A stretch of DNA of 64,000 bases from Amoebidium appalachense (lineage: Eukaryota; Protista; Ichthyosporea): assembly GCA_963693365.1 (NCBI GenBank), contig CAVNZM010000012.1, positions 4,888,409-4,952,408 on the forward strand, read 5' to 3'. Positions 7,692-62,899 of the stretch are shown one piece after another; positions within the stretch are counted from its first letter, which is position 1; each line of letters starts with the position of its first letter. Position numbers and translations under genes: made by a program. The notes beneath the pieces were generated by a model. That model saw only the letters and a program-made list of their open reading frames with translations, ran no database searches and was not told where the DNA came from.

Positions 7692-8052
7692 TTCACTGCC
7701 GAATGAATTTCATTTACGCTGATTATAAAACCAAGACTTGACTAAAATCCATTGATATGCCAAAATGACATACGTTCCTGCTGTATACATGTGTGTGCCA
7801 CTGATATTTGTCATGTACGTGTGTGCAAGACTACATGTGCCTGCGTGTGCTAGTGTCTGGGTGTGTGTGAGTGAGTGTGGGATTGTGCGTGGTGGTGGTG
7901 GTGGTGGTGTTGGTGATGGTGGCGGCGGTGGTGTGTGTGTGGGTGTGTGTGTGGGTGGGTGTGTGGGTTAAGGTGGGGGGGATATGGGGGTGGGAAAGGA
8001 AGGAAGGGGGGGGGGAGGAACGGTGGGAATGGGGGTGAGAAAAGGGAGGGAA

Positions 8053-8109: not shown

Positions 8110-9276
8110 CTATTTCTGCCGTTTGGCTAAAAGGGCTGCAAGCTCCTTCCTGGCCTCATCTTCCTTCTCCAGCTTCTCGAGCTGTGCGCGTCATGTCAGT
8201 GTAAGCCGATATTTCTTTCTTTCTTCCTTTTTCTGTTTTCGTTTCCTTTCTTCCTTCCTTTCTTTCTTTCTTTATTCTGCTTCTTTTTTGTTCTTTTTCT
8301 AGTAATATTTCTTTCTTTTCTTTCTTTCTTAATTTCCTTTTTTCTTTCTTTCCAGGGGGGGGGGGGGGGGGGGAGGGGGAGTCGCCTTTGTTCTTCTTGT
8401 TTCTTTTCCTTTTTTCTTTTTTCTTTTTCTTTTTTTCTTTTTTTTTTTTGGGGGGGGGGGGGGGGGGAGGGGGGGGGGGATGCTGATAAACCTCCCTAGG
8501 CACGGATCGCCATGCTAAGGTAGCTCATTGTCGATATCAAATCATTAATATTGACCCCAGCATTAGTACCAGCAATAAAACACAAGGGTGTGTGACAGCG
8601 CCCGATAAAAACGTATTTAAATTGATTCATCGTCGTGTTTCCATGCAATCGGAATATTTGCTCTATATACGAATACAATACGGCGGTCTACCATAATATT
8701 AATAGAAATGGCAGGTGGAGGGGGGTCCTAATGAAATTTCATTCCCACCTGGTTTTTCTCCAGAGGCTTGCCCTCCTTCTGTCTCACCTTCAAATCTTCA
8801 ATGCCCTTTACCCTCTTTTCCGCCTTTCTAATTTCCCTCTCAAGGGGGTCTGTCTCGGGTTTCGGTTCCGCTTTCACTGGGCAGGAAATAATGGTTTAGA
8901 TGGAATAAAAGTGGCGAGTCTCCCATTCATAAAATGTTAAGCAAAAGCATACCGTTCAAAAAAAAATGGCTTTACCAGTGAACAGATGTACACATGCCCC
9001 TCCGGCCCCACAGACACACAAATGATGTTTACTACTATTCGACCAACACATCCCCCCCACTCCCCCCCCCCCCTCCCCCCCCTCCCCCCCCCCCCCCCCC
9101 CCCTCCCCCTTTCCCCAACACAAAGCCATTCTTCATTACCACACAAACTAAGCAATTAACGAAACAGAATGGGAAAAAAAAGAGAGAGAGAAACCCTTAT
9201 GCAAGGCCAAAAACACAATACTGAAAAAACAATGCCCATACCTGCCCCGGCACATTCATCAACAGCTCCATCCCTC

Positions 9277-9349
<73 letters not shown>

Positions 9350-9788
9350 ACACGCAAACACACTGAAACCCCCCCCCCCCCCCCTCCGGCCTACCTTCTT
9401 GCTTTGTCTTTCCTGCCGGTGCCTCCTCTTTTATCAAATCTCCTGCACCCACCATGCCGTCATCTAACCAACACACCAACCATATACAGCAACACCCATA
9501 TTGGTATCCACCAAAAATAGAAACAATTATAATTGAGTACGCCTGCTATCAATCCATGCAATTATTTTTTTGAAGAAAAGAATTAAAATAAACCACTAGC
9601 ACGAATGATAATTGAAATAATGGCATTATAGAAAAACTCAGAGCGCAACTGGGTCATACCATGTCAGCCGTAGTGTGCCTACGTTAGTGCTGTTTCTTTT
9701 TCACCTACCTTAGTTGTGGGTGTTTGTGGGTGTGGGCGTGAGTGTGAGGGAGTGACATTCGTGTACGTGCGCGCATGTGTGTCTGTGT

Positions 9789-9831
<43 letters not shown>

Positions 9832-10248
9832 CGCGCGTGCGCGCGTGTGTGCGTGTATGTGTGTATGTGCGTGTGTGCGCGCGTTGTGTGTATGCACCTG
9901 CGTGCCTGTTGCAGGTTGCGGATGGTGGCGGGGGCGGTGTGTGTGTGTGTGTACCTGCATGTGCGCACGTGCGCACATTACATGTGTACGTGGAAATGCG
10001 GATGTGTGGGAAGGGGGCACAGCAAAGAATCCACTCACTTTGTGGGGTGCTAGCCGTCAGGACCTTAGCAAAGAATGCTGCAGGAATGAACCCATCATAT
10101 CCCTCCGTCAGGATGACGTTGTTTGCTGACCGGTAGAACACCATCCCGTCTGCATACAAACACACACCGAGTCAAGACCCTACAATCTCTAGAAGATATT
10201 TCCCTTCGATACCCCCCTCCCCCCCCCCCCCCCCCCCCCACGCGCGCC

Positions 10249-10918: not shown

Positions 10919-11482
10919 AAGAAGAAGAAGCAAAAGGAGAACAGGGAAAAAAACAAGAACAAAAAAAAAGAAGTAAAAAAATAAAAACGAACAGTAACCG
11001 AAACAGGCGCCCACAGCAACACGACAACCACCATCTCTAATCTCGATCAACCCCATGTGGATCTCATATCAGTCAACCCAATACAATCTCGACCAAACCA
11101 GCAGCACACCCACCCACCAGCCATTGCTTTCTCCACGTCCACGTACACATACAGCTCCGAGCTTTTTCTCATGCCGCTAATCACACCGTCCTTTCCGGGT
11201 AGATCCGGGGCCAAATGTATGTGCTGGCGGTTCATTTTTGACAATCCCTTGGATTTGATTGACCCCCACACGTCCAGGTATGTGCCGTGGATCGCCTGTG
11301 GGATCTCTGCGGAGGATTTGACGACATCCATCTCTACTTCGACGTCCTGTGTGCAGGGTGTAGGTGTAGGTGTGTGTTGTGTGTGTGTGTGTGGGGGGGG
11401 GGGAGGCGTGTATGTGTGTGTGTGTGTGGGGGGGGGGGGGGGGCGTATGTGTGTGTGTGTGGGGGGGGGGGTATGTGTGTGC

Positions 11483-11960: not shown

Positions 11961-12451
11961 AAACACACACCTTCCCCCCCGTGTACCCACAACTTACAGC
12001 ACACCTATCCACACACACCTTTAACGAGTGGCCCTGGTTGGCCCGTATCCACAGCTGGCCCTCCTCCTCCCTCAGCAGATATCTCTTCTTGTCGTTGTTT
12101 TCCACCACCGCCTTTAACTCATCAAGGGTGAACCCACGGTACTCACGGTGTGACAGAATGGTAGACACGAGACAGAATCCATCTGCTCTCATGGGGATGT
12201 CTGTGAAAAGAAAAGACGCGGCGGCGATGGTGAGTGAGGTTGAGAGGGTGGCGGTGGTGGTGGGTGGGTGGTGGGGATAAGAGAGAGAGAGAGGGGGGGG
12301 GGGGAGGGAGGGAGGGAGGGAGAGAGAGGGAGAGGGAGAGGGAGAGAGAGAGAAAGTGATTGTGTTTGTGTGTGTATTTGTGTTGGTGTGTGTGTGTGTG
12401 TGTGCGTGTGTGTGTGCCTTTGTTCCTTTGTGTCTTGTGGTTGTGTTAGTG

Positions 12452-13450: not shown

Positions 13451-13635
13451 TGCACACACACACACAAACACATACACGCAAACACAACCCCCCGCCCACA
13501 TCCACATCCACACACACACGCAGACACACACACACACATACTCTGCTTTGCCGCCGCGTGTCTGAGGGTATATGACAGCTTCTTCGACAGCTGCACGCTG
13601 CGGTCGACGGGACGAGAGGCACCGCGGTAGGCCAT
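8110..13635 (-). CDS. TPT1: tRNA 2'-phosphotransferase (Tpt1/TRPT1/KptA family) with C-terminal coiled-coil extension, ~287 aa, 7 exons
   Basis: Exons 13635-13542, 12200-12019, 11346-11118, 10149-10039, 9442-9395, 8876-8749 and 8181-8110, all phase-compatible GT-AG. Family motifs: [48 protein letters not shown]. The core is certain; the last three exons are inferred. Confidence 0.93.
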
Positions 13636-14103
13636 GTTGCAGTGTAGTGTGGGTGCAAGAGATGGTGTTGAGGGGAAGTGTTACGTGATTCTTGTGCTTA
13701 TGAAGTGGGTGAATCCGCTTGCTACTTAATGTTGGTATACTTCGAACGGAGTGGCGGGTGTGTTCGTTTCGTTTGCGGCAGCTCTGCCGCTGCGTTTTTG
13801 ATTCTGAACAGTTCTTGTTGCGTAATCCATTGCGTAATGCAGATGGACCAATAGCCGGATAATTTTGGTAGCCTTTATGCTTGAACGGTTTGCACTGTAC
13901 AAACACTCACACCCCCTTGGCGGGAAAAGTCTCGGGCTGTGTTTTGGAGTCGAGGCAAGAAGAGGGTTTTGCTTCCTTACCACCATAAATGATACCACAT
14001 TGATATCACGATGATATCATTATGTGCTAGGGAGAGCATGTATAACTGGATGGAGAGAGTTAAGACAGAAAAATTGACAGGGAGGGAAGATCTGTAGGCA
14101 AGC
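13636..14103. promoter_or_regulatory. Putative bidirectional promoter between TPT1 (-) and the BNR-repeat gene (+)
   Basis: 468 bp between divergent ATGs, free of simple repeats. Contains TTGCGTAAT twice (13818, 13830), CCAAT (13848) and an E2F-like TTGGCGGGAAAA (13917-13928). Confidence 0.55.
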
Positions 14104-15250: not shown

Positions 15251-16726
15251 AACCCCCCTCCCCCCTCCCCCCCCCCCCCCTTCCCCCCCACACACACACA
15301 CACACACCTCTAAAACAGGTAGCCATCAACACAATCGACCCCCTCCCGGGTGGGGAGCTTTTCGCGGGCGGGAGGTACCTGAGGAACTATGCGCCAATCA
15401 AACAGGGGGATGGGTTTGTGGGGATATCACGTGATATGGGGGTCACGTGGACGTGGATGGGTCTGCCCAGGGGCATGTCTCCGGTTAGCCAGGTGGCATC
15501 CCTGGGCAGAAATAAGGTAGGGTGTTATTCATTTTCCTTTATTTTTCTTTATTTCTTTCTTTCTTTTTGTGTGTGTGTGTGTGTGTGTGTGCTGTGCTGT
15601 GTGTGTGTGCAGGGGGGTGGGTGGGTGGGGGGGGGGGGGGTTGGCCTTTTTCTTACCCTTACTTGTGTGTGCAAGCCCACGTGTGTGTGTGTGGGTGGAT
15701 GTGTGTATGGCAGGTTTGTCTTTGTGTTTTTGGGACCCGGCAGTAGGGGGGAAGGATTGGAGTTCTTGTGTGGGTGTGTTGTCAGGAGGAGGCCGAGGAA
15801 AGGGGGGGCAGCAGGGGAATGGGGGAGACGGGAGTTAACAGTTTAAAATATGAATGTTTTTGTTAAAGGAGCCAGAGCATGTTGCCGCATCTATGGAATG
15901 TTTTTTTGGCGTTATGAGAGTGTGGTACGATGTGTGGGAAGGCGGTGTGCTTTAAATGTCTTAACCAATATAATTTTCACCCATTGCAGCTTGGAGCCGC
16001 CACGTCCAACGGCCTATACGTGTCACGTGACATGGGCCTCACGTGGACCGAATGCACCAATCGCATCGCGCGGCATCAGGTGTTCACTTCCATATATGGC
16101 GTCGGGAATTCCGCGGACCCTTCCGCCCCCCTCAGCGCCGTCGCCGTGGGCGTGACTTTGGGACGTGCGCTGATCTTATACACGGACGACGGGGGGGAGA
16201 CATGGAAGGAGGGAAGATGTAAAGGGGTTAAAGGGTTGAATTCCGTCGTGTACGTACCCTATTCAAACGGAGAGGGTGGTGGGCGTCTGGAAGGAAAAGA
16301 AGGGAGAATGAGAGCGAGGGGAGAAGAAGGGGGAGGTGCATTTAAGGGGAGTGAGGGGAAGGAGGGTGGGTGGGTGGCGGTTGGGGACGGTGGTGTGATG
16401 GTGAGTTCGTGGGATGGGGGGGCTGAGTGGGCAAGGGAGACTACAAATACGGAGGCTGCATTGAAGAGCGTCACCGTCACAAAGGTTTGACACTTTGTCT
16501 CATTCGTTGAGGTTGTTTCTTGTGTATGAGAGCCATGATACTTGGTCCTTATATTGCGGGGTTGTTTCTGGTGAATGAAGGTTCTCTTCTTTCCCCCCTC
16601 CCTTCTCCCCCCCTCCCTTTACCATGCACGTGCGCACCCACACCCACAAGTGCACACAACCACATGCTCGCGCGCACAGACACACACACAAGCACAAACA
16701 CACACACGCACAAACACACATACACA

Positions 16727-33805: not shown

Positions 33806-33847
<42 letters not shown>

Positions 33848-34074
33848 GAATGCGGGAGGGGAGGGGCGGGGTGGGGGGGAGATTATGCACACATACATTG
33901 AGGGCTGCTGTGCGTGCTTTGGGCGTATCCTCAGGACCTGTTTCATGACGTCATCCAGGTCCATCAGCCCCCCGTTTCTTGGCCGGGCAGCCAGGCACAC
34001 CTCCACTATCTGCACACCAAGCTGCACACAAACACCCACCCAGTCAGACATGCACATTGCTAACTCCCCCCCAC

Positions 34075-37955: not shown

Positions 37956-62899
<24,944 letters not shown>

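What the first reader, a model, noticed from the sequence alone, without database searches (positions are those of the whole stretch)
8110..9442. Tpt1 fused to an eIF2A/PYM-like C-terminal helical motif
SEEN: three extra exons absent from the ORF track as a unit (9442-9395, 8876-8749, 8181-8110) splice in phase onto the Tpt1 core. They encode [87 protein letters not shown]: this closely resembles the eIF2A C-terminus (...KKIKNLKKKLKAIEQLK...GKQLEKNQLEKIQKE...) and the related motif in PYM/WIBG, whose C-terminal region associates with the small ribosomal subunit. Tpt1 removes RNA 2'-phosphates using NAD+, and some members ADP-ribosylate nucleic-acid ends; its substrate in RtcB-using lineages is unclear. 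INFERENCE: a ribosome-tethered Tpt1 acting in RNA repair or quality control at translating ribosomes. I do not recall this fusion in yeast or human Tpt1.
Basis: partly seen in the sequence, partly recalled or inferred. Interest (0 to 1): 0.72.

Follow-up and report, generated by a model that had tools for sequence, protein, structure and literature searches.

The report
Tpt1 enzyme with eIF2A-like helical tail
A spliced gene encodes an RNA-repair enzyme (Tpt1) carrying a small helical tail also found in the translation factor eIF2A and the RNA-granule protein Caprin-2; the same fusion recurs in algae and a fungus, and the tail likely parks the enzyme on ribosome- or mRNA-bound RNA.

Summary
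Observation confirmed. Seven GT-AG exons splice in frame to a 287-aa protein identical to a transcript-derived database protein, and one run contig (RNA by the tool's guess) carries all seven exons. Residues 11-200 are an intact Tpt1 with all four catalytic residues. After a 30-residue flexible linker, residues 232-287 form a predicted helical hairpin. A profile built only from Tpt1 tails finds the human eIF2A C-terminus (E 1.8e-13), and the model's best structural match is the Caprin-2 HR1 N-lobe (0.5 A over 51 residues). The invariant K267 matches eIF2A K567, which is needed for IRES-RNA binding. The fusion is not unique: 16 of the top 150 Tpt1 relatives carry it, including a haptophyte, dinoflagellates and a fungus, and they do not form one clade (AU p=0.0006). 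Human, mouse and yeast Tpt1 lack it. I found no paper describing it. A docking role on mRNA/40S is plausible but untested: fly PYM does not bind ribosomes, the role of PYM's domain is called unclear, and PYM similarity could not be tested directly. A second contig keeps intron 6 and would lose K267. Verdict: real, apparently undescribed variant.

The parts
13542..13635 (-). Exon 1: start codon, residues 1-31, with catalytic R25 and H26
   Evidence: (contigs cover 13549-13762)
12019..12200 (-). Exon 2: Tpt1 RNA lobe, residues 32-92, with R71
   Evidence: (PF01885 E 3.4e-16)
11118..11346 (-). Exon 3: NAD+ lobe, residues 93-168, with the HGT motif, R132 and the S-G-M-R loop
   Evidence: (PF01885 E 8.6e-22)
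10039..10149 (-). Exon 4: end of the Tpt1 core, residues 169-205
9395..9442 (-). Exon 5 (48 nt, phase 1-1): low-confidence linker, residues 206-221
   Evidence: pLDDT under 50 at 213-221
8749..8876 (-). Exon 6: end of linker and long helix 1 of the eIF2A/Caprin-type hairpin, residues 222-264
8110..8181 (-). Exon 7 coding part: residues 265-287 with invariant K267, helices 2-3 and the stop codon
   Evidence: (joint 8181/8749 in X2)
8586..8748 (-). 5' part of intron 6 kept in run X1's contig; gives six new residues and a stop at 8730-8728 (270-aa form without K267)
   Evidence: one contig of one run
7700..7851 (-). Downstream stretch covered by separate contigs in X1 and X2; likely 3' UTR
   Evidence: not bridged to exon 7 because repeats lie between

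Best explanation
This gene encodes an intact-looking Tpt1 joined by a flexible linker to an eIF2A/Caprin-type helical hairpin, which likely acts as a docking arm that holds the enzyme on structured RNA of mRNA/40S complexes. Shown: the gene structure, splicing, intact catalytic residues, homology of the hairpin, and recurrence of the fusion. Predicted: the fold and the independence of the two parts. Inferred: the hairpin binds through K267 as eIF2A does through K567, and the tethered core then uses NAD+ either to strip 2'-phosphates from ligated or broken RNA or to ADP-ribosylate phosphorylated RNA ends near ribosomes. The tail would set where the enzyme works, not its chemistry.
For: Core: PF01885 at 212.8 bits against a cut-off of 26. 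R25, H26, R71 and R132 align with Runella R16, H17, R64 and R119, which are essential in vivo (PMC6097658), and are invariant in 19 of 19 aligned rows. Tail: the profile of 11 Tpt1 tails finds human eIF2A at E 1.8e-13 and Caprin-2 at E 0.01 among 177,635 PDB sequences; the next hit is at 0.75. hhalign against eIF2A-family P0198 gives 96.5%. The model has helices 232-255, 262-269 and 271-286 at pLDDT above 90, matching Caprin-2 120-183 (Foldseek rmsd 0.5 A over 51 columns; VIA Z 9.5, rmsd 1.5, 58 aligned, the only chain at Z 8 or more of 48,161). K267 is one of two invariant columns in 11 tails and aligns with chain residue K585 of 8DYS, which is K567 counted from the C-terminus. Purified eIF2A 502-585 is sufficient to bind HCV IRES RNA and K567A abolishes binding (PMC6208778 section 14). 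The human PYM C-terminus is needed for ribosome co-sedimentation (cited in PMC4072592). eIF2A sits near the 40S mRNA entry channel with CAPRIN1 and PYM1 among its proximity partners. Other eukaryotic Tpt1s carry RNA-handling partners at the same place or nearby: RNase_T in 8 of 75 scanned, plus RRM, CCHC, PARG and NADAR.
Against: No binding was tested here. Drosophila PYM does not bind ribosomes. A 2025 preprint finds that PYM1's C-terminal ribosome contact is unlikely to direct it to translating ribosomes and calls the domain's role unclear. The eIF2A preprint found no C-terminus-specific interactors. In Caprin-2 the basic cluster tied to RNA and PI4P binding (K196-R201) lies outside the matched 120-183 stretch. 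The hairpins are only weakly basic (+1 to +5) and are acidic (-4) in two dinoflagellates. Z 9.5 for a helical hairpin is below the tool's caution line of about 13 for helical models. Most Tpt1s lack the tail (134 of the top 150), so it is not needed for core function.
Confidence: 0.45

Rival explanations
1. The hairpin is a substrate-holding arm: it raises the enzyme's grip on its ordinary substrate (spliced tRNA or other structured RNA) with no link to ribosomes.
For: The only direct binding result I read for the module is to a structured RNA with purified protein. The 18-72 residue linkers could reach a bound substrate. Tpt1 is often fused to other RNA-binding or RNA-processing domains.
Against: The best-known carriers (eIF2A, PYM, Caprin) are translation or mRNP factors. 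The eIF2A C domain was not needed for tRNA binding. Net charge is low.
Confidence: 0.2
2. The hairpin is a protein-partner or self-regulation module (recruitment to RNA granules, oligomerisation, or damping of the enzyme), not an RNA or ribosome binder.
For: The fly PYM C-terminus modulates PYM's own partner binding. The Caprin-2 authors suggest that the flexible N-lobe takes protein partners. Conserved positions are a mix of hydrophobic and charged residues, and net charge is near neutral.
Against: K567A abolishes RNA pull-down for eIF2A. The model gives a low-confidence linker and pTM 0.67, with no sign of a fixed position against the core.
Confidence: 0.22
3. The tail is a near-neutral passenger picked up by domain shuffling at a permissive C-terminus and matters little to the enzyme.
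For: Eukaryotic Tpt1 C-termini carry many unrelated domains. Close relatives of tail-bearers have FHA, PARG, NADAR or nothing. One contig encodes a form without the key lysine.
Against: The same module sits at the same place in lineages whose cores do not form one clade, with invariant residues kept, and it is retained across many dinoflagellate proteins.
Confidence: 0.13

Closest known systems
Human/mouse TRPT1 and yeast Tpt1 (PDB 7YW3, 7YW2, 7YW4)
   Same: Two-lobed core (E 5.8e-51 by sequence; Foldseek E 1.1e-22), the catalytic Arg-His-Arg-Arg set and the S-G-x-R loop (PMC10415124).
   Different: Their short C-termini are disordered in the human and mouse crystals and are not hit by the hairpin profile.
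eIF2A C domain (human 502-585; PDB 8DYS sequence)
   Same: About 50-residue motif, 46% identical to eIF2A-family P0198, at the extreme C-terminus after a flexible linker, with the K567-equivalent lysine.
   Different: No WD40 propeller and no M domain: this is a shared module, not an eIF2A.
Caprin-1/2 HR1 N-lobe (PDB 8K9C)
   Same: Long helix, short helix, helix arrangement, superposed at 0.5 A over 51 residues with 37% identity.
   Different: Lacks the dimerising C-lobe and the K196-R201 basic cluster. The Caprin-2 paper treats HR1 as Caprin-specific and does not mention eIF2A (0 occurrences).
PYM1/WIBG C-terminal eIF2A-like domain
   Same: Described in papers as homologous to the eIF2A C-terminus, so likely the same module.
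   Different: Not compared directly here; no Mago-binding N-terminus in this protein.
Other eukaryotic Tpt1 fusions (RNase_T, NADAR, PARG, FHA, RRM, CCHC)
   Same: Tpt1 core plus an accessory domain.
   Different: Most of those partners are enzymes or named Pfam domains; this tail has no Pfam model.

Membership tests
Tpt1/KptA RNA 2'-phosphotransferase | PF01885 above the gathering score over the whole model | tested here: met
   212.8 bits vs 26, profile 1-177 of 177
Tpt1/KptA RNA 2'-phosphotransferase | Arg-His-Arg-Arg catalytic set and eukaryotic S-G-x-R loop | tested here: met
   R25, H26, R71, R132; S149-G150-M151-R152 (definitions)
Tpt1/KptA RNA 2'-phosphotransferase | Two-lobed fold | tested here: met
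   Predicted model matches 7YW3 and 7YW2, target TM 0.86-0.91
Tpt1/KptA RNA 2'-phosphotransferase | NAD+-dependent 2'-phosphate transfer | not testable with these tools
   needs an assay or tpt1 complementation
eIF2A C-domain-type hairpin module | Profile similarity to the eIF2A C-terminus beyond coiled-coil chance | tested here: met
   E 1.8e-13 in PDB sequences; hhalign 96.5%; shuffle controls
eIF2A C-domain-type hairpin module | Lysine equivalent to eIF2A K567 | tested here: met
   K267, invariant in 11 of 11 tails; numbering inferred from the C-terminus of the 603-residue 8DYS chain
eIF2A C-domain-type hairpin module | Binds structured RNA or 40S | not testable with these tools
   literature on other carriers only
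PYM/WIBG C-terminal domain | Direct similarity to a PYM C-terminus | tested here: inconclusive
   no PYM sequence was returned; these searches are word- or cluster-limited
eIF2A (whole protein) | WD40 beta-propeller (PF08662) | tested here: not met
   absent from P0001; present in P0198
Caprin (whole HR1) | N-lobe hairpin | tested here: met
Caprin (whole HR1) | C-lobe dimerisation domain and K196-R201 basic cluster | tested here: not met
   the protein ends at the position of Caprin-2 residue 183

The most novel reading that the evidence does not exclude
eIF2A, PYM and Caprin share one unrecognised hairpin that docks at a common site on the 40S or its mRNA, and Tpt1 has carried or captured it repeatedly across eukaryotes. 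Tpt1 would then work on ribosome-bound RNA (cleaning 2'-phosphates or ADP-ribose-capping broken mRNA ends at stalled ribosomes), with retention of intron 6 switching the tether off.
Probability: 0.2. Interest if true: 0.8.

Novelty: new variant of a known kind. Interest (0 to 1): 0.53.

Why it matters
A 2023 review calls the wide presence of Tpt1 in organisms that seem not to need it a major unanswered question (PMC10275265). A naturally attached targeting module gives a handle: pull-downs with and without the tail would show where this Tpt1 works and on which RNA. The fusion also isolates a 55-residue module whose role in PYM1 is called unclear, and it ties the eIF2A C-terminus to the Caprin HR1 N-lobe, a link I did not find in print. 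The value is tempered because Tpt1 fuses with many domains in microbial eukaryotes and no function was tested.

Tried and rejected
No genome is held, so paralogues, RtcB and Trl1 were not checked and the lineage was not determined. Pfam has no model for the tail. A single-sequence tail search among 157-503-aa proteins found only the protein itself among 124 candidates, which is a sensitivity limit since searches found relatives. ESM Atlas gave no usable hit for the P0001 tail or named clusters, and only unnamed clusters under 0.9 for the P0077 tail. The locus scan with the tail alignment could not run, because no stretch was conserved enough. No phage match for exon 6. The AU test on all 156 cores did not finish in two runs; the reported tests use 42 of the 156 rows (12 of the 16 tail-bearers, the dinoflagellate family cut to two, plus 30 hand-picked others). 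The grouping of P0001 with the dinoflagellate family (SH-aLRT 94) did not hold in the smaller tree. A tree of the hairpins alone is unresolved (1 starred branch of 12). A homodimer prediction never ran because the queue was full, so it gives no verdict. Runs X4 and X23 gave nothing usable (repeat matches only; none laid). Rejected: separate transcript for the tail exons (one contig spans all exons); chance coiled coil (controls); a neighbouring eIF2A gene as donor (P0198 has no tblastn hit in the window). No earlier findings of this scan matched.

Full report
Observation. The region is a microsatellite-rich, intron-rich eukaryotic locus; no genome is held and the lineage was not determined. 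Seven minus-strand exons (13635-13542, 12200-12019, 11346-11118, 10149-10039, 9442-9395, 8876-8749, 8181-8110) with six GT-AG introns give 864 nt, 287 residues and a stop. A search with exon 3 returned P0001, a 287-aa protein with a transcript-assembly name that is identical to this translation. In run X2 one 1013-nt contig lies on all seven exons. Three joints are tabulated, and the 9395/8876 joint follows from record coordinates. These runs are one sample and one study, labelled RNA only by guess, though exact skipping of GT-AG introns fits spliced RNA.

A second form. In run X1 the contig shares exons 1-6 but continues through the 8749 donor to 8586. That reads six more residues and a stop, a 270-aa protein without residues 265-287. 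Contigs give no ratio, and this may be unspliced pre-mRNA. It is worth noting because the lost part is close to the eIF2A segment (561-585) whose deletion removed IRES binding.

The core. Pfam PF01885 covers residues 11-185 at 212.8 bits. R25, H26, R71 and R132 align with Runella R16, H17, R64 and R119, essential in vivo per PMC6097658 (passages), and they are invariant in 19 of 19 aligned proteins. The S-G-x-R loop of eukaryotic TRPT1 (PMC10415124, passages) is present. The model matches human and mouse TRPT1. Activity is inferred, not shown.

The tail. Alone it hits human eIF2A at E 2.8e-4. A profile of 11 Tpt1 tails, with no eIF2A in it, hits eIF2A chain residues 550-601 at E 1.8e-13 and Caprin-2 at 0.01, of 177,635 PDB sequences; the next hit is at E 0.75, and human, mouse and yeast Tpt1 are not hit. 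hhalign against an eIF2A-family protein gives 96.5%. Leave-out scores are 20.5-57 bits against shuffle maxima of 7.5-13, with 0 of 1000 shuffles reaching the real score in each of 11 cases. AlphaFold2 gives helices 232-255, 262-269 and 271-286 at high confidence behind a low-confidence linker. The best structural match is the Caprin-2 HR1 N-lobe: rmsd 0.5 A over 51 columns by Foldseek (E only 0.18-0.25) and Z 9.5, the single chain at Z 8 or more of 48,161. That Z is modest for a helical model, but sequence agrees, and the paper's helix boundaries show the same long-short-long layout (PMC11480233, section 4). The invariant columns are I247 and K267. K267 aligns with K585 of the 603-residue 8DYS chain, which is K567 of the 585-residue protein when counted from the C-terminus (my inference). 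PYM likeness was not tested directly because no PYM sequence came back.

Distribution. Of 5,637 relatives at E 0.001 among 50%-identity representatives, only the best 150 were listed. 16 of these 150, counting the query, carry the hairpin at 26.8 bits or more, and the next best scores about 3. Eleven of the 16 were in the profile, and the ranking favours tail-bearers, so the true share is lower. Of 64 rows with 55 or more residues after the core, 16 have it. Named carriers are Scyphosphaera apsteinii, Sorochytrium milnesiophthora, Symbiodinium natans, Effrenium voratum and Cladocopium goreaui; their placement as haptophyte, blastoclad fungus and dinoflagellates is from my recall. Named relatives without it include Paraphysoderma, Umbelopsis, Auricularia, Cymbomonas and Guillardia. 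A profile search returned 37 proteins: 33 with PF01885, one eIF2A, one annelid ICE1-like protein, one protein with three copies of the motif and one with no Pfam family; only the 7,986 candidates sharing most words were scored. On a core-only tree the label needs 8 changes among 156 rows. In a 42-row subset one clade of tail-bearers is rejected (p-AU 0.0006 with LG+G4; also with the mixture model). This cannot tell repeated gain from an old fusion with many losses. Several tails are as close to eIF2A's hairpin (45-51%) as to each other. Among 75 longer relatives picked from the 150, 8 carry RNase_T and single ones carry PARG, NADAR, FHA, RRM or CCHC, so Tpt1 fuses readily.

Mechanism. Best reading (0.45): the hairpin is a docking arm that holds active Tpt1 on RNA of mRNA/40S complexes, where it removes 2'-phosphates or ADP-ribosylates RNA ends; both chemistries are known for the family (PMC10275265, passages). 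For: purified eIF2A 502-585 is sufficient to bind HCV IRES RNA and K567A abolishes binding (PMC6208778, passages and section 14); human PYM's C-terminus is needed for ribosome co-sedimentation (cited in PMC4072592, passages); eIF2A maps near the 40S mRNA entry with CAPRIN1 and PYM1 nearby (bioRxiv 2025.05.22.655611, abstract and passages). Against: fly PYM does not bind ribosomes; the PYM1 domain's role is called unclear (bioRxiv 2025.03.13.643037, passages); no C-terminus-specific eIF2A interactors were seen; Caprin-2's basic cluster lies outside the match; the tails are weakly basic or acidic. Rivals: protein-partner or self-regulation module (0.22), substrate-holding arm (0.20), passenger (0.13).

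Novelty. Ten full-text searches were run. Seven bear on the fusion or the module: Tpt1+eIF2A, KptA+Tpt1+domain architecture+fused (24), Caprin+eIF2A+PYM (33), TRPT1/Tpt1/ribosome/RtcB/C-terminal extension (42), Caprin+HR1+basic helix (62), eIF2A/PYM1/helical hairpin (73) and Tpt1 with protist terms (85). From listings and the passages read, none describes it. PMC9503650 (passages) mentions a viral KptA-Nudix fusion, not this one. Limits: subscription journals are not searched; a 2016 RNA-repair survey that I recall covers KptA architectures was not held; Diem 2007 was seen only as cited; no supplements were read, and the PYM-eIF2A alignment in Fig. S2 of PMC4072592 was seen only as a legend. 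Verdict: a real, spliced, recurrent and apparently undescribed domain fusion. It is a new variant of a known kind, with an untested but sharply testable targeting role. Interest 0.53.

Noticed in passing
window 38488-38688 and 46512-46652 (+): Two exon-sized pieces match Pfam FancD2 (E 3.6e-7 and 1.4e-4): a FANCD2-like gene spread over many kb.
   Followed up: no
window 33845-34069 (-): Exon matching EAP30/Vps36, an ESCRT-II subunit family.
   Followed up: no
window 15918-16487 (+): Open frame with BNR/Asp-box repeats and a weak Sortilin-Vps10 match.
   Followed up: no
window 40222-40345 and 49253-49390: Short tandem duplications: 62 nt at 89% and 65 nt at 97% identity.
   Followed up: partly
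window 8719: Run X1's contig has one extra G here, in intron 6 behind the stop of the retained form.
   Followed up: no
P0201 (257 aa, unnamed run assembly): Protein made of three spaced copies of the same hairpin motif and little else; a good probe for the module's own function.
   Followed up: partly
P0200 (Lamellibrachia satsuma, 1315 aa): ICE1-like protein ending in an eIF2A-type hairpin (50.4 bits); may be a gene-model merge.
   Followed up: no
P0041, P0071, P0096, P0105, P0108, P0129, P0151, P0161: Tpt1 fused to an RNase_T exonuclease, on either side, in 8 of 75 scanned relatives; also NADAR (P0145), PARG (P0047), FHA (P0037) and potato inhibitor I (P0005, P0154) fusions.
   Followed up: no
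P0015, P0016, P0022, P0027: Proteins with two or more Tpt1 domain stretches in tandem.
   Followed up: no
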